Assembly: GCF_009914755.1 (NCBI RefSeq)
Contig: NC_060940.1
DNA: 64,000 nt
DNA from: the human T2T-CHM13v2.0 reference genome, Homo sapiens
Reading direction: 5' to 3' (one strand)
The stretch's first letter is position 1, and each line of letters begins with the position of its first letter. A program made the position numbers and the translations under genes. This document shows positions 10,922-55,286 of the stretch, piece after piece. A model generated the notes under the pieces. That model searched no databases. It was not told the origin of the DNA and saw only the letters and a program-made list of their open reading frames with translations.

Positions 10922-11146
10922 TAGTATCCCCTCTTCTTGCTGGTGACCATGAAGCTGTGTGATTGGCATGAATCTGTGTGACAGAGAGAGCCATGTGTAC
11001 ATCCCCCAAGTAAGTCTTCAGCTCCATGAGGGGAAGAGGGGAGGCCACATCTGTCTGTTCAGTGCTGTGTCTCTGGCACCTAGAGTGGAGCTTGGCACAT
11101 AGTAAGTGCTCAATGAATGCGGCTACTATAATTACCAACTGGTCTA

Positions 11147-11629
<483 letters not shown>

Positions 11630-11796
11630 TCATGGTGTACAGGATGTGAGGGCGCTTCTGGCCTCTGTGTGGGAGAGAGGCCTGCCTCTTGCAGATCAGG
11701 ACACCATTGGATGTGGCTGGCCCCGCTCAGAGCACAGTCCTGGCCCCTGCCCTGTTCCCAGTGACCTGCTGATGGAGCAGGGCCCCAGGACCCCTA

Positions 11797-11973
<177 letters not shown>

Positions 11974-13140
11974 TCATGAGAACCACCAGGATATAGCCTG
12001 GAACCACCTCCGGGGGTGGGCGCCAGTGCAGGAGTGCTCAGCGTGGAGCCAAGGCAGCGCCCAAATGGGGCAGGCACCAGGTATTCCAAACAGACCTCGA
12101 ATCTGACCACTTCTGCTCCTCCCAATGTCTCTCCTCCTCATTACTGTCTAGCCTCCCAGTGTCTACTCCTGGCCCTTCTCTGTCAACCCGTTTTCTACAA
12201 CAGCAGCCCAGAGGGAGCTTTTAACAAAGATGAATGCAATCATACCACCCTCCTCCCACAAAGCCTCTGATGGCTCCCAGGTGCCTTAGGGTAAAGTCCA
12301 ACTCCTCTCTACGCTCTCACAAAGCCCTGCACGATTGGACACCTACCCGCCGCTCCCCCTTAGTTCACTGTACTCCAGGCACCAGGGACTCCTTTCTGTT
12401 CCTCAGACACACCAAGTTCCTGCCCACCACAGGGCCTTTGCACATGCGTGGATCTTTCTGAGACACTTCTTAGGACTGATTTTTCTTATTCTCAGGCCTT
12501 GACCTAAAGGCCCCCTCCTTAGGAATGCCTCTTCTGCCCACCTGGCCTGGAGGAGGGGCCTCCTCATCCCACTCCCCACTGGAAAGCTAGCCTGGGAGGA
12601 CGGGGAGCTTGTGCGTCTGTCCACCTTTGTGTCGTTGTATGGCCTGGGCACAGGGCCGCCCTCAGTGTACAGTGACTAATTCCAACACTGCTCTGCACAC
12701 AGGTGCATCGGCATTGCTTGGCGTGCATTTAAGACAATAACATTTCTTGCGGTATACAGCAAACCCCAACAAACTGCTGCTCCCTGTAACACACGGATGA
12801 GTTTTCAACACATAATGTTGAGGGAGAGACACCAGATACAAAAGAGAACCTTTATAATTTTCTACTAAATTGTACATTTGTGTTTCATTCGCTTTTCTTC
12901 GAATGATTATACTTCATAATTTGAAAAGACTAAAAGAACAGGGTCCTGGACCCAGCCCTGAAAGGTGCTGATTCAGGAGGGTGGAGGCGAGGTCTGGGAA
13001 TCTGTATTTTAGGAGATTTCCTCAGAGATTCTCATGTAAGACCAGTCTTGGTCCCCTCCAGGACAGTTTCAGGCTCTAAAGTTCTGTGATCCTCCCAGCT
13101 GCTAGAAACCCACCGATCCAGTGTGGCGTTCCCTGGGTGG

Positions 13141-13159
13141 CTGCGCCCTCTGGTGGCCA
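13141..13159 (-). promoter_or_regulatory. CTCF-binding motif in CCDC102A intron 4
   Basis: Minus strand reads TGGCCACCAGAGGGCGCAG, a near-perfect match to the CTCF core consensus. Confidence 0.7.
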
Positions 13160-13740
13160 TTGAGGCCTGCACAGGAGGCCGTAGTGGCAGCTCAGCCTGC
13201 TCTGAGCCCCCACACTGCAGTGGTGGATTCCCTTCTCTGGAGCCTCAGTTTCCCTATCTGTAAGATGGGGACATGAGGACCCAGCTCCCTGGGCTGCCAT
13301 GAGGCTTCAGTGACACCTAGTACAGATAGGAACCCAATGAATGCCACATCCAGCCTCCTCGTCTTCATCCTGGTCTACAAGGCCCCCTCCTGCGGCCTCG
13401 CCTCTCACTTCCTGCTCTCCAGCCACCTGGCCCTCCCTGTTTCCCGCACACGCTGGGCTTGTTCCTGCCTCAGGACCTTTGCACCGCTGTGCCTTCTGCC
13501 AGGAACACTCTCCCCTGTATCTTTTCAAGGACAGCTTCCTCTAGCCCCTTTAGGTCTTGCCTCAAATGCCACCTTCTTAGGCCTTCCCTGACCTACCACC
13601 CCATCTCTCTCATTCTGTTTTGACTCCTTCATAAATTATGAATCTGCCTGGTGACTGTCGGTCTCCCATGCCCACAGCCCCCACAAAGTGAGCTCCTGAA
13701 GGCAGGGACCTTGCCTGCCCAGCACTCAGAACAACTCAGA

Positions 13741-13857
13741 AAAAATAACATAACATAACATAACATAACATAACATAACATAACATAACATAAATAAAAT
13801 AAAATAAATAAAATAAAATAAAATAAATAAAAATAAATAAAATTAAAATAAAATAAA
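13741..13857. repeat. (TAACA)9 followed by (TAAAA)n pentanucleotide tract
   Basis: Read directly; abuts the 5' end of an Alu. Confidence 0.95.
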
Positions 13858-14211
<354 letters not shown>

Positions 14212-14214
14212 TCA

Positions 14215-14523
<309 letters not shown>

Positions 14524-14538
14524 CTAGAAGCACCCTGG

Positions 14539-15123
14539 CTTTGCAGTTCTCCTGGAACTGCATTCCCTATCCAAGTGCAAGTGCCCAGCTCACATTGTGG
14601 GGAGGTGGTCGGGGTTCCAGAGCACTGAGCATCCCCGGGCAAGTACCTCTCTCCTGCTGCACCTCAGGCTCATCTGAAAATGGCTCCAGGAGGTGGCGGC
14701 CCCAGCACTGGCCACTCCACTCCTTGGCCCACCTTGTTCTTCTCGAAGAGCTGTCAAAGACCACCCTGCTCCTGTCTGTTTTGTAGACTATGTTCCCGGC
14801 AAGGCTTGGTCTGAACACATGGTTCTGCAGATAGAAACACTGGAAAACACTGTCCAGTGACCCGAAGAGAGGGTTCTCTCTTGCCATCGACACTGTGTGG
14901 GATCCCTACATCCTCCCATAACCCCCACCCTGCCTTGATCTTGAATAAGGCACTGTAGGTAACAAGCATGATGCCTGGCCCTGGCAGAGTAGGTGCTCAC
15001 CAATGGCTGAGCTCAGCATCACCTTCCAGCACGCTGCCCTTCATGACCCCACACCACACTGGCCTCTCTCTCTGAAAGTGGAACACTCCATGCCTCCAAC
15101 ATGGGGTTCCCAGAGGGGACAAC
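14539..15123 (+). repeat. Left (donor) arm of 585-bp inverted repeat
   Basis: Reverse complement of 17035-17619 with about 9 mismatches; mirrored ORFs in the track (14567-14893 minus vs 17265-17591 plus). Confidence 0.97.
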
Positions 15124-15498
15124 GTCACCCTGTAGGAGGCATGTTGAAAACCCATGGCAACATTTTTGGCTATCACAATGATTAGGGGTCATTTAGTGGA
15201 CGGGGGCCAGGGTGCCTGACTCCCTGCAATGCCCTGGGCGTCCTGCCCATCAGGATGCATCCTGCATCCTACTGAATGCATGCACAGCCCACTGGACATT
15301 GCTCGGGGTAGAGATGATCTGAGCCTACAGCCTCATTCTGATTTACATTGAAACAGAAAGTAATTTTTATACTAACATACACTGAATTTTCTAGGAATGG
15401 AATCACTGTATAAACTGAAGGAAGACTGCACTTTTCTTTGTTTTTAGAGAGAGGATCTGGCTCTGTTGCTCAGGCTGGAGTGCAGATCACAGCTCACT

Positions 15499-15651
15499 CC
15501 CTGGAACTGCACTCCCTACCCAAGTGCAAGTGCCCAGCTCATATTGTGGGGAGGTGGTCAGGGCTCCAGAGCACTGGGCATCTCTGGGCAAGTACCTCCC
15601 TCCTGCTGTACCCCAGGCTCATCTCTTAAAGACTACCCTGTTCCTGTCTGT
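15499..15651 (+). repeat. Older direct partial copy (~91%) of 14551-14780 inserted in an Alu/FLAM
   Basis: Aligns to 14551-14675 + 14756-14780; flanked by TCACAGCTCACT direct repeats. Confidence 0.9.
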
Positions 15652-16082
15652 TCACAGCTCACTGCAACCTGGAACTCCTGGACTCAAGCGATCCTGCCAC
15701 CTCGAGCTCCCAAAGTACTGGGATTATAGGCATGAGCCACGGTGCCCGGCTGCACTTTGCTTTGTTCAGAACTTTACCAAAGGCTGTTCATCTCTCAAGA
15801 AAGCGCATCGCAGTGACACCACTTGTGTCTTTGAGTTGCTAAGTCTGCACACCTGCATGAGCCGCCTTTGTAGCTGTCCTGCGAGGTGACTTAAATGTGC
15901 AGATACATGTAAGCCTTCAACACAACACCTGACTCGGAGCACATGCTATGTCTTTGCTGTTATAACTATCGTCACTATCATCCCATTTAAAGACACCCAC
16001 TCTGACCACTTCACCATTTCTTCTAGAGGAGCTATGCCCAAGCACTCCCATATCACAACACGTGTATTTTAAGTTACTTTCA

Positions 16083-16379
16083 GGCTGGGCGCAGTGGCTT
16101 ACACCTGTAATCCTAGCGCTTTGGGAGGCCAAGGCAGGTGGGCTCCCTGAGCTCAGGAGTTCGAGAGCAGCCTGGGCAACATGGTGAAAACCTGTCTCTA
16201 CTAAAATACGAAGAATTAGCTGGGCGTGGTGGTGTGTGCCTGTAGTCCTAGCTACTCGGGAGGCTGACACATGAGAATTGCTTGAACCAGGGAGACAAGA
16301 GATTGTAGTGAGCTGAGATAGAGCCGCTGTACCCCAGCCTGGGCAACAGAGCGAGACTCTGTCTCCAAAAAAAAAAAAA
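16083..16379 (+). mobile_element. Alu
   Basis: Sense Alu; TSD AAGTTACTTTCA on both sides. Confidence 0.95.
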
Positions 16380-16439
16380 GTTACTTTCACTTCTACTTTA
16401 TATTTCAGTTAGTGCACTAGGTTGATTTTTTTGCTTGTT

Positions 16440-16665
16440 TGGCTTAAACAGTCTAAATTTATTCTCTCATATTTCTAGAGGCTAGAAGTCCAAGATCAAG
16501 CTGTTGGCAGGACTGGTTCTCTGAGGGCTGCGAGAAAGAATCCGTTCCATGCCTCTCTCCCAGCTTCTGGCAGTTTGCTGGCCATCTTTGGTATTCCTTG
16601 GCCAAAGATGCAACAATGTCCGCAAAAGCATCACCCTGACCTCTGCCTACATCTTCACAAAGGCA
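16440..16665. mobile_element. MLT1-type LTR fragment
   Basis: GGCTTAAACA...TTTATTCTCTCA...GAGGCTAGAAGTCCAAGATCAAG signature. Confidence 0.75.
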
Positions 16666-16673
16666 TTATAGTG

Positions 16674-17904
<1,231 letters not shown>

Positions 17905-18224
17905 TTATATTGATTTTTTAAAAAGGAGTGTGTAGATAGGTTATGCTATTGTCGTATTTAATTTCTGGACAGAAAAACTGCAGAATATTCATTATCATCA
18001 AGCTCGTGCCCTCTAAACTGCTCTGATCAAGGTCACTGGTGACCTCCACATTCTAAATCCAATGGTCCAGGGCTCAGCCCTGTTCTTACTGATCACTCTG
18101 TCCTCCGGGAAACGGTTTCTTGTGGTTCCCCTTCCCAGCCCGGCTCCCTTCTCTTGTCTCCTCTGCTGTTTCCCTTTCCTCTAACTGACCTCTAAACTTG
18201 GCACTTCAGGGCTGGATCCTCTGA

Positions 18225-25932: not shown

Positions 25933-26622
25933 GCAGACACACACACTCCTCCTTTTCCTGGCCTAGCTCCACATAGAGAAGCTCTTGGAAAAGAAAAACA
26001 ATGTGAGAGCCTGTGGGGGGAGGGGAGGAGGAGGAGGAGGCAGGAAACCCGAATGCCAGCCGGCAGCTGTGCTGGGTATGGGGGCCCGGGCCCTGTCTGC
26101 TGGGCCCTTCTTGCAGCCGCTGAACTAGGAGCCTGGCAGGGAGGGGGCCACTGCCACATCCTCCCTGCCTCTGGGAGCTGCCAGGCCTGGCACAGGGCTT
26201 GGCCCAGAGAGGGCCACCGGCTTCTTCCAGGAATCCAAGCCTGTTGGGCAGGGCCAGGGCAGGCACCACCCAGGTCTCTAATGGCTTCCAGGCACCCATG
26301 CTAAAGGCAGAGATGGGGGCTCCAGACTCACCTCATTCTCCTTCCCAGCGGCCTGGCCAGGCCCCTCCTAGGGGCTGGGGGAGAAGGAAAGGGCACAGCA
26401 GGAGCACGGAAGTTTTGGAACAGCACTCCCACCTTTGCACTTCAGGCCCAGGGTCCCCTGGAGCGGGTGTGTGGGAAGGGGTGGGGGTCGGGGTCCTCAG
26501 GGGAGTTTTCTGGAGAAGCCCACCCCGCCCCCAGCACACCAGGAATCCTGCACTCCCACATAGACCCAAGGGCAGCCAGACCCTGCCTTGCAACGCCTCC
26601 CCCTACCCTGCCCCACTCATAC

Positions 26623-26985
26623 AGCACAGCCCTGGGGACACACACTCACATACAGCCCCAGTAATGCACACATTCACACACACACCCCCAGGGACCCGCA
26701 CTCACACACAGCCCCAGTAATGCACACACTCACACACACACCCCCAGGGACCTGCACTCACACACAGCCCCAGTAACGCGCACACTCACACATGGCCCCA
26801 GGGACCCGCACTCACACACAGCCCCAGTAACACTCACACTCACACATGGCCCGAGGGACCTGCACTCACACACAGCCCCAGTAACGTGCACACACACACA
26901 TACAGCCCCGGTAATGCACAGACTCACACGCAGCCCCAGTAACGTGCACACTCACACACAGCCCTGGTAACGCACACACTCACTG
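26623..26985. repeat. CA-rich minisatellite (~56-bp unit containing CAGCCCCAGTAA...CCCCAGGGACC)
   Basis: Repeated ACACAGCCCCAGTAA anchors at ~26651, 26707, 26762, 26817, 26872, 26931. Confidence 0.85.
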
Positions 26986-48398: not shown

Positions 48399-48693
48399 TG
48401 ATATGGTTTGGCTGCATCCCCACCAAAATCTCATCTTGAATTGTAGTTCCCATAATCTCCATGTGTCATGGGAGGGACTGATGGGAAGTGATTGGATCAT
48501 GGGGGCAGTTTCCCCCATACTGCTCTCGTGATAGTGAGTGAGTTCTCATGAGATCTGATGGTTTTATAAGCATCTGGTTTTTCCCCTGCTAGCCATTCTC
48601 TCTCCTGCCACCCTTTGAAGAGGTGCCTTCCTCCATGATTATATACCCAGTCTTGGGTATTTCTTCATAGCAGCATGAGAATGGACTGATATA
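48399..48693. mobile_element. MaLR (THE1-like) solo LTR
   Basis: TGATATGGTTTGGCTG start; 5-bp TSD TCTTC at 48394-48398 and 48694-48698. Confidence 0.88.
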
Positions 48694-48968: not shown

Positions 48969-49336
48969 TGATATGGTTTGGCTCTGGGTCCCCATGCAAA
49001 TCTCATGTTGAACTGTAATTTTTCAATGTTGGAGAGGGACCTGGTGGAAGGTGTTTGGATCATGGGGACAGATTTCCCCCTTGCTGTTCTCCTGATAGTG
49101 AGTGAGTTCTCAGAAGATCTGATGGTTTAAAAGTGTGTAGCACTTCCCCCTTCTCTCTCTCTCTCCCCTGCTGCCATGTGAAGACATGCTTGCTTCCCCT
49201 TCGCCTCCCGCCATGATTGTAAGTTTCCTAAGGTCTCCCCAGCCATGCCTGTGGAACTGTGACTCAAACCTCTTTTCTTTATAAATTACTCAGTCTTTGA
49301 TGGCTCTTTATAGCAGTGTGAAACTATACTAATACA
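48969..49336. mobile_element. MaLR (MST/THE1-like) solo LTR
   Basis: TGATATGGTTTGG...TAATACA; 5-bp TSD CTTAT on both sides. Confidence 0.88.
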
Positions 49337-50100: not shown

Positions 50101-54271
<4,171 letters not shown>

Positions 54272-55286
54272 AACAATCGCTGTTTTTAGCCTCTTCCTTC
54301 ATCCCCTCTTCAGAGGTTACTGATGCCCCCAGTTCTCAAGTGCTTCCAAGGTTGTGAGGCTTCTCCTTGTCTCCTGCCAACACCACACCTCTCCCCACTG
54401 CAGGCACTTGGGTTCAACTTTTTTTGGTCTGCTAAACGTCTTACCAGGTGCCACCTACTTGTAGCCTCCAAAATTTAGCTGACATCTCCCATCTCTGCAG
54501 TTGTTTTCTTTCCCATTGTTCTGTCTTTGTGCCTGTTTTCTAAGGAGTAGCTTTACCTCTCCCATGGTAGGGTACAGGGTTTCCTGTACCCTGTGTCTTC
54601 TTTCATGATTTACTCTCTCATTTTGTTGGAGCACATCCTCCAGCAGCTTCCTGAGAGGCTTTGTGCCTCCTTTCTTCCCCATTGTACTGTTTTTCATGCC
54701 TCTTTTCTTTCCCATTGTTCTGTGGCTTTGTGCCTATTTTATTCATTCCCTCTCATTTTAGTGGGGCTTTAAGGGGCAGACATAAATTTGCTCTATTGAA
54801 GCAGAAGTTTATTAGTTCATTTTAAAATGGAGGAAAATGAGGGCAGAGGAGAGACAGATCCTACCCAAAGCCGCACGATGAGTTAATGGCAGGGCTGGAT
54901 GGGGTTTACCTGTTGCTTTCTCCCAAACACCGTCCCCCTGGGTAGAGACTGGGATCCTGGGGAAGCCCCCAGAAAGACTGCTTTTTGGGAAGGGGAGTGT
55001 ATCAGGCGGAGCTGCTAATGGCAGCCATTACTTGGTGGTCAAGGATTCTGGAGTCTTAGAGACCTGGCTTTAGGCAGGTTTAAGTAAAGCAAGACCCTTT
55101 GCCCTTCATCCTCAGCTTCCTCATCTGTGAAATGCAGGAGTGGTGAGTCAAATAAGATGCTGCATGTCCTACTCTTGGGACATGCCAGACACCTAGAAGT
55201 TAGAGGTTGCTCTTTTATCATCATGGTGATGGCATGCACCTTTTTCAGGGCCGGAGCCAGTTCTTGGAGGAGACTCTGCACAGGGC

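What the first reader, a model, noticed from the sequence alone, without database searches (positions are those of the whole stretch)
14676..14755. 80-bp insert stitched from two templates flanking CCDC102A exon 6
Seen: 14677-14699 (AAAATGGCTCCAGGAGGTGGCGG) is the exact reverse complement of 11554-11576 in intron 5. 14689-14751 is a 63-bp direct copy (2 mismatches) of 11232-11294, the last 19 nt of exon 6 plus its splice donor. The two pieces are joined through a shared 9-bp microhomology, GGAGGTGGC. The older copy at 15499-15651 lacks this block, consistent with it being a later insertion. Established: short local templated inserts with strand switching at microhomologies are the signature of FoSTeS/MMBIR or polymerase-theta end joining. 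Intronic sequence is included, so a spliced-mRNA retrocopy is excluded.
Basis: partly seen in the sequence, partly recalled or inferred. Interest (0 to 1): 0.75.

Follow-up and report, generated by a model that had tools for sequence, protein, structure and literature searches.

The report
Two-template copied insert in CCDC102A intron
A 77-base patch in intron 3 of human CCDC102A was copied from two short stretches on either side of the gene's exon 6 and stitched together at a shared short motif, which is a clean but ordinary scar of error-prone DNA repair or replication.

Summary
14677-14699 is the exact reverse complement of 11554-11576. 14689-14751 copies 11232-11294 with 2 mismatches. The pieces overlap in 11 nt: 9 exact, then one mismatch where the block carries the base of the inverted template. 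A chimeric source therefore differs from the block at 1 of 75 nt.

In the whole T2T genome, the 80-mer, the 23-mer (up to 1 mismatch) and the surrounding 585-bp unit occur only at this locus. It is not a dispersed repeat.

Removing 14677-14753 (77 nt) lets the unit align without gaps to the older copy at 15500-15652, with 15 of 153 mismatches. The indel therefore coincides with the templated tract, which makes it an insertion and not a deletion in the other copy.

The block lies in unit A (14539-15123). A was later copied in inverted orientation into an Alu at 17035-17619, with 9 of 585 mismatches.

Best reading: serial template switching of a DNA 3' end, of the MMBIR/FoSTeS type; polymerase theta is not excluded. 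This is a new example of a known kind, of modest interest. Dating across primates could not be done with these tools.

The parts
14677..14753 (+). Net 77-nt insertion in intron 3 of CCDC102A (75 templated nt plus TG; its placement is ambiguous by the 3-nt CTG also present at 14674-14676)
   Evidence: Removing it gives a gap-free alignment of A to B, with 15 of 153 mismatches over the homologous part; sequence
14677..14699 (+). Piece 1: inverted copy of 11554-11576
   Evidence: Exact 23-nt match; 0 expected by chance; only 3 places genome-wide, all at this locus
14689..14699 (+). Internal junction: an 11-nt overlap of the two templates (9 exact, then one mismatch at 14698 that carries the piece-1 base)
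14700..14751 (+). Piece 2, unique part: direct copy of 11243-11294. On the minus (gene-sense) strand it holds the last 19 nt of exon 6 and its splice donor
   Evidence: 1 mismatch, at 14727
11554..11576 (-). Template 1, in intron 5, 69 nt from the exon 6 acceptor edge
11562..11587 (+). Perfect 11-bp-stem, 4-nt-loop hairpin in template 1. The copied tract ends exactly at the last loop base (11576)
   Evidence: -14.6 kcal/mol, z -4.0, 0 of 200 shuffles as stable
11232..11294 (+). Template 2: 44 nt of intron 6, the donor, and 19 nt of exon 6
   Evidence: exon coordinates from the annotation supplied
14539..15123 (+). Unit A: locus-specific intronic sequence that received the block and is the parent of copies B and A'
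   Evidence: genome-wide, only local matches
14542..14562 (+). Perfect 8-bp-stem hairpin at the left edge of A. Copy B starts in its loop, and copy A' starts 3 nt outside its stem
15500..15652 (+). Copy B: older 153-nt copy of A without the block, inserted in an Alu-related monomer-like element
15488..15498 (+). 11-nt duplication of the host sequence flanking B (second copy at 15653-15663)
   Evidence: Read directly
17035..17619 (-). Copy A': inverted duplicate of A that carries the block (17405-17481); 9 of 585 mismatches
17013..17034 (+). 22-nt filler at the left junction of A'. 16 of the 22 nt are covered by two 8-mers copied from the immediate flanks (one inverted, one direct). The filler creates a perfect 9-bp hairpin at 17007-17028
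   Evidence: 8 of 2000 shuffles reach this coverage
17620..17634 (+). 15-nt filler at the right junction of A'; no template found
   Evidence: 0 of 15 nt covered
16862..17012 (+). Left part of the Alu that A' split. The right part is 17635-17795, and TGGTGGC is present on both sides

Best explanation
The block is a germline templated insertion. A free DNA 3' end arose at a break or collapsed fork in intron 3, between 14676 and what is now 14754.

Inferred sequence of steps:
1. The end was extended on a template 3.1 kb away, first copying 23 nt of the plus strand of intron 5 (11576 back to 11554). This start lies in the loop of a hairpin.
2. The end dissociated and re-annealed through its last 11 nt, with one mismatch, to the opposite strand 312 nt further on (11232-11242).
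3. It was extended a further 52 nt through the start of intron 6 and the splice donor, and 19 nt into exon 6.
4. It returned to the other side of the break with 1-3 nt of homology.

This is serial microhomology-mediated template switching of the MMBIR/FoSTeS type. A polymerase-theta route is not excluded.

What is shown: the two templates, their orientations, the junction, and that the insertion is a copy (both sources are intact). What is inferred: the order of synthesis, the kind of lesion and the enzymes.

Order of events at the locus: copy B was made from A first, the block then entered A, and A (with the block) was then copied in inverted orientation into an Alu 1.9 kb away.
For: - Exact 23-nt inverted match, and 63-nt direct match with 2 mismatches. 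0 of 100 shuffles give the 23-mer even with 3 mismatches.
- The only genome-wide matches are the two block copies and the sources. The same search method does find dispersed relatives at 72-92% identity for a control segment (9 of 11 hits on other chromosomes).
- The chimeric source differs from the block at 1 of 75 nt. At the one mismatch inside the overlap, the block has the piece-1 base, as expected if piece 1 was the primer.
- The 77-nt indel against B coincides with the templated tract to within 2-3 nt.
- Block-to-source divergence (1-2 of 75) is lower than A-to-B divergence (15 of 153). The Fisher tests, run on 17 of 155 (2 of those bases are non-homologous flank), give p 0.008 and 0.04.
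- The block is present with identical junctions in A and A'.
- There is no poly(A) and no long target duplication at the block.
- Multi-template germline insertions with inverted templates and junction microhomology are a described class (PMC8421209: abstract, introduction and passages read).
Against: - The outer junctions have little or no microhomology: 0 nt on the left, 1-3 nt on the right. A strict MMBIR model would expect some at each switch.
- The templates are 3.1-3.4 kb away. This is outside the 100-bp range used to define MMB-TIs in PMC8421209 and far beyond typical polymerase-theta inserts (mostly under 25 bp, about 85% primed within 10 bp of the break; PMC5068794 passages).
- The synthesis polarity rests on a single base, which a later substitution could also explain.
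- No outgroup sequence was available, so the insertion-versus-deletion call and the dates rest on evidence from within this one genome only.
Confidence: 0.8

Rival explanations
1. [quoted passage not shown]
For: The outer junctions have 0-3 nt of homology, and single-nucleotide priming is typical of POLQ (PMC5068794 passages). The neighbouring A' junction carries a typical TMEJ-like filler: 16 of its 22 nt come from two 8-mers copied from within 25 nt of the junction, one of them inverted (8 of 2000 shuffles).
Against: In the POLQ data read, inserts are mostly under 25 bp, about 85% are primed within 10 bp of the break, and only about 3% map to distant sites. Here 75 nt were copied from 3.1-3.4 kb away, with an 11-nt internal junction.
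Confidence: 0.25
2. Two pre-formed DNA fragments from the exon-6 region, possibly released by cleavage at the hairpin loop at 11573-11576, were captured at a break and joined to each other by annealing of the 11-nt inverted homology.
For: Piece 1 ends exactly at the last loop base of a perfect 11-bp hairpin. The outer junctions are almost blunt.
Against: Both source sites are intact in the genome, so the fragments would have to come from a sister or homologue that was then repaired or lost. Joining at an inverted homology needs single-stranded ends of the right polarity. No other trace of fragmentation is seen at 11.2-11.6 kb.
Confidence: 0.1
3. The patch came from RNA, as a class 2 templated-sequence insertion: unspliced CCDC102A pre-mRNA was reverse-transcribed and the cDNA was used to fill a break.
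For: Piece 2 is a contiguous stretch of unspliced pre-mRNA. In A it lies in the sense orientation of the gene. Class 2 TSIPs lack a target duplication and poly(A), and show microhomology (PMC5110952: abstract and section 9 read).
Against: Piece 1 is antisense to the same pre-mRNA. A single RNA template therefore cannot give the block without an extra fold-back or a sense-strand primer. Donor and target lie 3 kb apart in one intron-exon neighbourhood, which fits local DNA copying.
Confidence: 0.06
4. The block first arose during the formation of the inverted copy A', as part of one chain of template switches, and was afterwards transferred to A by gene conversion between the two arms.
For: Block-to-source divergence (1-2 of 75) is about the same as A-to-A' divergence (9 of 585), so the two events are close in time. 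The A' junctions show further small template switches.
Against: It needs conversion of a 77-nt heterology. The 9 A-to-A' mismatches are spread evenly, including one inside the block and ones 38 nt and 45 nt from it, so no recently converted tract is visible.
Confidence: 0.08
5. The block is ancestral to unit A, and copy B lost it by a precise deletion or skipped it when it was copied.
For: A 3-nt CTG repeat flanks the block and could mediate a slippage deletion.
Against: The missing tract in B matches the 75-nt templated tract to within 2-3 nt at both ends, which a random deletion would not do. The block is also significantly less diverged from its source than B is from A.
Confidence: 0.03

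Closest known systems
MMBIR/FoSTeS-type templated insertions (MMB-TIs; PMC8421209, passages and introduction read)
   Same: A short insertion copied from nearby DNA. At least one template is in inverted orientation. Several templates contribute to one event. There is microhomology at a switch point. It is found as a fixed or germline variant without a larger rearrangement.
   Different: The templates lie 3.1-3.4 kb away, not within 100 bp. Only the internal junction has substantial microhomology (11 nt, one mismatch); the outer junctions have 0 and 1-3 nt.
Polymerase-theta templated inserts (PMC5068794, passages read)
   Same: Prime-extend-dissociate-reprime logic, with minimal homology at the outer junctions. 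The filler at the A' junction (17013-17034) fits this class well.
   Different: The block is 75 nt copied from kilobases away. Typical inserts are under 25 bp and copied from within about 10 bp of the break.
Class 2 templated sequence insertion polymorphisms (PMC5110952, abstract and section 9 read)
   Same: A patch copied from elsewhere fills a break, with no poly(A) and no long target duplication.
   Different: Those are proposed to derive from RNA and usually from distant loci. This one is chimeric with opposite strands and comes from the same gene, 3 kb away. It was seen here in one assembly only, and polymorphism was not tested.
Short-range template-switch mutations of the four-point model in great apes (PMC7954356, passages read)
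   Same: Inter-strand switching, an association with hairpin-forming sequence, and creation of new perfect inverted repeats (as at 17007-17028).
   Different: Those events act within tens of bases in one fork and give a single inverted tract. Here there are two tracts and a kilobase jump.

Membership tests
MMBIR/FoSTeS-type templated insertion | The inserted bases are a copy of genomic sequence that remains intact at its source | tested here: met
   Both sources are intact; 74 of 75 nt are identical to the chimeric source
MMBIR/FoSTeS-type templated insertion | Microhomology at the template-switch junctions | tested here: inconclusive
   Internal junction 11 nt (10 of 11 matching). Left outer junction 0 nt; right outer junction 1-3 nt
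MMBIR/FoSTeS-type templated insertion | Template in inverted orientation and/or several templates | tested here: met
   One inverted tract and one direct tract
MMB-TI as operationally defined by MMBSearch (PMC8421209) | Template within 100 bp of the insertion | tested here: not met
   The templates are 3,101 and 3,383 bases from the insertion site
Polymerase-theta templated insert | Small insert (mostly under 25 bp) copied from sequence within about 10 bp of the break | tested here: not met
   75 nt copied from more than 3 kb away. The criterion is taken from PMC5068794 passages
LINE-1-mediated insertion (class 1 TSIP / retrocopy) | Target-site duplication of 5 bp or more, a poly(A) tail, and a TTTT/A target | tested here: not met
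   Block: 2-3 nt duplication and no poly(A); the four A at 14677-14680 are templated from the source loop. B and A' have 11-nt and at least 7-nt duplications but no poly(A)
Processed (spliced) retrocopy | Exon-exon junctions with introns removed | tested here: not met
   Piece 2 runs uninterrupted from exon 6 into intron 6. Piece 1 is intronic and on the opposite strand
Dispersed repeat family | Many copies elsewhere in the genome | tested here: not met
   80-mer: 3 of 3 hits are local. 585-bp unit: 5 of 5 hits are local at E up to 10. Copy B: 3 of 3 hits are local. A control segment gave 9 non-local hits out of 11
Class 2 TSIP | The patch derives from an RNA template | not testable with these tools
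   No expression or reverse-transcription data. The opposite strandedness of the two pieces argues against a single RNA

The most novel reading that the evidence does not exclude
The 14.5-17.7 kb part of CCDC102A intron 3 may be a recurrent copy-and-paste hotspot anchored on hairpins.

- One 585-bp unit received one patch and donated two non-tandem local copies over tens of millions of years.
- In 2 of 12 breakpoints the copied tract begins or ends in the loop of a perfect hairpin. Loops plus or minus 1 nt cover 0.15% of the window, giving a binomial p of about 1.5e-4. The test is post hoc.
- This would point to synthesis started at, or breakage in, hairpin loops as a distinct germline route to kilobase-range templated patches.

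As by-products, the block plants a sense-oriented near-copy of the exon 6 splice donor 358 nt upstream of exon 4. A and A' also form a 585-bp near-perfect inverted repeat that could fold as double-stranded RNA in the pre-mRNA or flip the 1.9-kb spacer.
Probability: 0.12. Interest if true: 0.5.

Novelty: new member of a known kind. Interest (0 to 1): 0.27.

Why it matters
This is a fully resolved natural example of a multi-template insertion whose templates lie kilobases away. That distance is beyond the range at which current catalogues of germline templated insertions look (100 bp in the tool described in PMC8421209).

The single mismatch inside the junction homology gives a rare clue to the direction of synthesis. 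The coincidence of tract ends with hairpin loops suggests where such events start.

In practical terms, the block duplicates a real splice donor, in sense orientation, inside an intron. The later inverted duplication creates a long intronic inverted repeat. Both can be tested for effects on CCDC102A RNA.

None of this changes what is known about the mechanism. It is an instructive case, not a discovery.

Tried and rejected
- **Dispersed repeat or chance match.** Rejected by the genome-wide searches and by shuffles.
- **Known structured RNA.** 0 Rfam families reach the gathering score in 11000-18000.
- **LINE-1-mediated origin of the block, B or A'.** No poly(A) at any junction.
- **A template for the right-hand filler of A' (17620-17634).** 0 of 15 nt are covered by 7-mers or longer from the flanks or from the A flank. 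A 7-mer shared with the far flank of A was seen by eye but is at chance level, and I dropped it.
- **The pre-existing 11-nt inverted homology around exon 6 as a feature in its own right.** 8 such pairs lie in 11200-11600, against a mean of 2.9 (maximum 11) in 60 shuffles, and 8% of shuffles reach 8. Not remarkable.
- **Literature on this locus.** 0 papers hold both 'CCDC102A' and 'inverted repeat'.
- **Earlier notes of this scan.** They were closed to the session.
- **Subfamily assignment of the host Alus.** Not attempted, because the diagnostic positions would have come from memory.

Full report
**Observation**

I read the three regions directly and compared the region with the whole window by BLAST.
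- 14677-14699 is the exact reverse complement of 11554-11576.
- 14689-14751 matches 11232-11294 at 61 of 63 positions.
- The 23-mer has three hits in the window (14677, 11554 minus strand, 17459 minus strand). None of 100 dinucleotide shuffles gave a hit, even with up to three mismatches allowed.

By the annotation supplied, exon 6 is 11276-11485 on the minus strand. The direct piece therefore covers 44 nt of intron 6, the donor, and the last 19 nt of exon 6. The inverted piece lies in intron 5, 69 nt from the exon.

**Not a repeat family**

The window's own genome can be searched.
- The 80-mer matches only three places, all on this chromosome at this locus: itself, the 17.4-kb inverted copy and the 11.2-kb source.
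- The 23-mer, with up to one mismatch, matches only the same three places. The reversed control pattern gives none.
- The whole 585-bp surrounding unit has only local matches at E up to 10. The same is true of copy B.
- As a positive control for the method, another locally duplicated segment (53396-53510) returned 9 matches on other chromosomes out of 11, at 72-92% identity. The search can therefore see old dispersed families.

**Exact anatomy of the block**

The two templates overlap in the block over 11 nt (14689-14699). Nine are identical in both templates (GGAGGTGGC). Then comes one position where the templates differ, and there the block carries the base of the inverted template. The last position is shared again.

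A chimeric source made of the reverse complement of 11554-11576 followed by 11243-11294 differs from the block at 1 of 75 nt in A and 2 of 75 in A'.

If 14677-14753 (77 nt) is removed, A aligns to copy B with no gap. There are 15 mismatches over the 153 homologous nt (17 of 155; the last two positions are host sequence). The indel is therefore 75 templated nt plus TG. A CTG is present at both edges, so the exact placement is ambiguous by 3 nt. The left outer junction has no homology to the source. The right one has 1-3 nt.

**Insertion or deletion, and when**

Two lines of evidence from within the genome favour insertion into A after B was copied.
- The tract missing from B coincides to within 2-3 nt, at both ends, with the tract that has templates elsewhere. 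A deletion in B would not be expected to respect those limits.
- The block is much closer to its sources (1-2 of 75) than A is to B. Fisher tests give p 0.008 and 0.04; they were computed with 17 of 155.

The block is present with identical junctions in the inverted copy A', so it predates that duplication or is contemporaneous with it. A and A' differ at 9 of 585 positions. With recalled neutral rates of 0.5-1.0e-9 per site per year:
- A/A' is roughly 8-15 million years old;
- the block has a similar point estimate, with a wide interval;
- B is several-fold older.

These dates are inference only. No outgroup sequence was available.

**Wider context**

The block is one of three nested local copy events.
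- **Unit A (14539-15123)** sits in otherwise unique intron sequence.
- **A' (17035-17619)** is inverted and splits an Alu. The left part of that Alu (16862-17012) and its right part (17635-17795) align to consecutive parts of intact Alus, and TGGTGGC is present on both sides. A' is therefore the derived copy.
  - Its left junction has a 22-nt filler. 16 of the 22 nt are two 8-mers copied from within 25 nt of the junction, one inverted (from 16990-16997) and one direct (from 17041-17048). 8 of 2000 shuffled fillers do as well.
  - That filler creates a perfect 9-bp hairpin at 17007-17028.
  - The right filler (15 nt) has no template that I could find.
- **Copy B (15500-15652)** interrupts an Alu-related element of about 165 nt. 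The left 90 nt of that element align with the Alu left arm, and its last 70 nt with the end of the right arm. From recall, this resembles a fossil Alu monomer; I did not test that. B is flanked by an 11-nt duplication of the host (15488-15498 and 15653-15663). None of the three inserts has a poly(A) tail.

**Hairpins at breakpoints**

The window holds only 14 perfect hairpins with stems of 8 bp or more and loops of 3-8 nt.
- The copied tract of template 1 ends at the last loop base of one of them (11562-11587; 11-bp stem, -14.6 kcal/mol, z -4.0).
- Copy B begins in the loop of another (14542-14562), and A' begins 3 nt outside the same stem.
- Loops plus or minus 1 nt cover 0.15% of the window, and 2 of the 12 breakpoints I listed fall in them (binomial p about 1.5e-4).

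The test is post hoc, and the breakpoints carry 1-3 nt of ambiguity, so I treat this as a lead. It agrees with the published view that hairpins stall synthesis and favour strand dissociation (PMC7954356, passages read).

**Mechanism**

The simplest account is serial template switching of one DNA 3' end:
1. extension on the plus strand of intron 5, starting in the hairpin loop;
2. dissociation;
3. re-annealing through 11 nt, with one mismatch, to the opposite strand 312 nt away;
4. extension through the donor into exon 6;
5. return to the broken intron 3.

The base at 14698 supports this polarity, because a primer keeps its own sequence across a mismatched annealing. This rests on one site. A later substitution could mimic it.

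Comparison with the literature I read:
- Multi-template germline insertions with inverted templates and junction microhomology are described as MMBIR-linked, but are catalogued only for templates within 100 bp (PMC8421209).
- Polymerase-theta inserts are mostly under 25 bp and copied from within about 10 bp of the break, with about 3% from distant sites (PMC5068794).
- Class 2 templated sequence insertions are break patches thought to come from RNA (PMC5110952).

The block fits the first class best, apart from its distance. The A' filler fits the second class. An RNA origin is disfavoured because the two pieces have opposite strandedness relative to the pre-mRNA.

**Consequences, not tested**

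On the gene's sense strand, the block in A reproduces the last 18 nt of exon 6 followed by a donor. That donor differs from the real one only at intron position +6. It lies 358 nt upstream of exon 4. Only one transcript is annotated, and I have no RNA data.

A and A' form a 585-bp inverted repeat, 98.5% identical, with a 1,911-bp spacer inside one intron.

**Verdict**

The thing is a clean example of a known mutational scar, with a kilobase template distance and hairpin-associated ends as its only unusual traits. Interest is modest.

Noticed in passing
14539-15123 and 17035-17619: A 585-bp inverted repeat, 98.5% identical (9 mismatches), with a 1,911-bp spacer, all inside intron 3 of CCDC102A. 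It could fold as long double-stranded RNA in the pre-mRNA or mediate inversion of the spacer.
   Followed up: partly
15432-15751: An Alu-related element of about 165 nt on the minus strand. It joins the Alu left arm directly to the end of the right arm. It is interrupted by the 153-nt copy B and has an 11-nt host duplication. The start of B shares 9 nt (CCTGGAACT) with host sequence 5 nt beyond the duplication.
   Followed up: partly
17007-17028: A perfect 9-bp-stem hairpin created by the junction filler of A'. Its arms derive from the Alu sequence on its left.
   Followed up: yes
53396-53510 and 54536-54650: A direct local duplicate of 115 nt, 94.8% identical. Unlike unit A, it belongs to an old dispersed family (9 further genomic hits at 72-92% identity). 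A second short pair lies nearby, 54504-54539 with 54703-54740.
   Followed up: partly
26614-26964: A tandem-like repeat with an offset of about 113 nt and 81% identity.
   Followed up: no
48399-48564 and 48969-49128: A low-copy direct duplicate, 78% identical and about 570 nt apart.
   Followed up: no
13745-13850: A long compound microsatellite (ATAAC repeats followed by AAATA-type repeats) directly upstream of the Alu at 13857-14153, about 110 nt from exon 4.
   Followed up: no
15252-15270: A further perfect 8-bp-stem hairpin in the spacer. It is not at any breakpoint.
   Followed up: no
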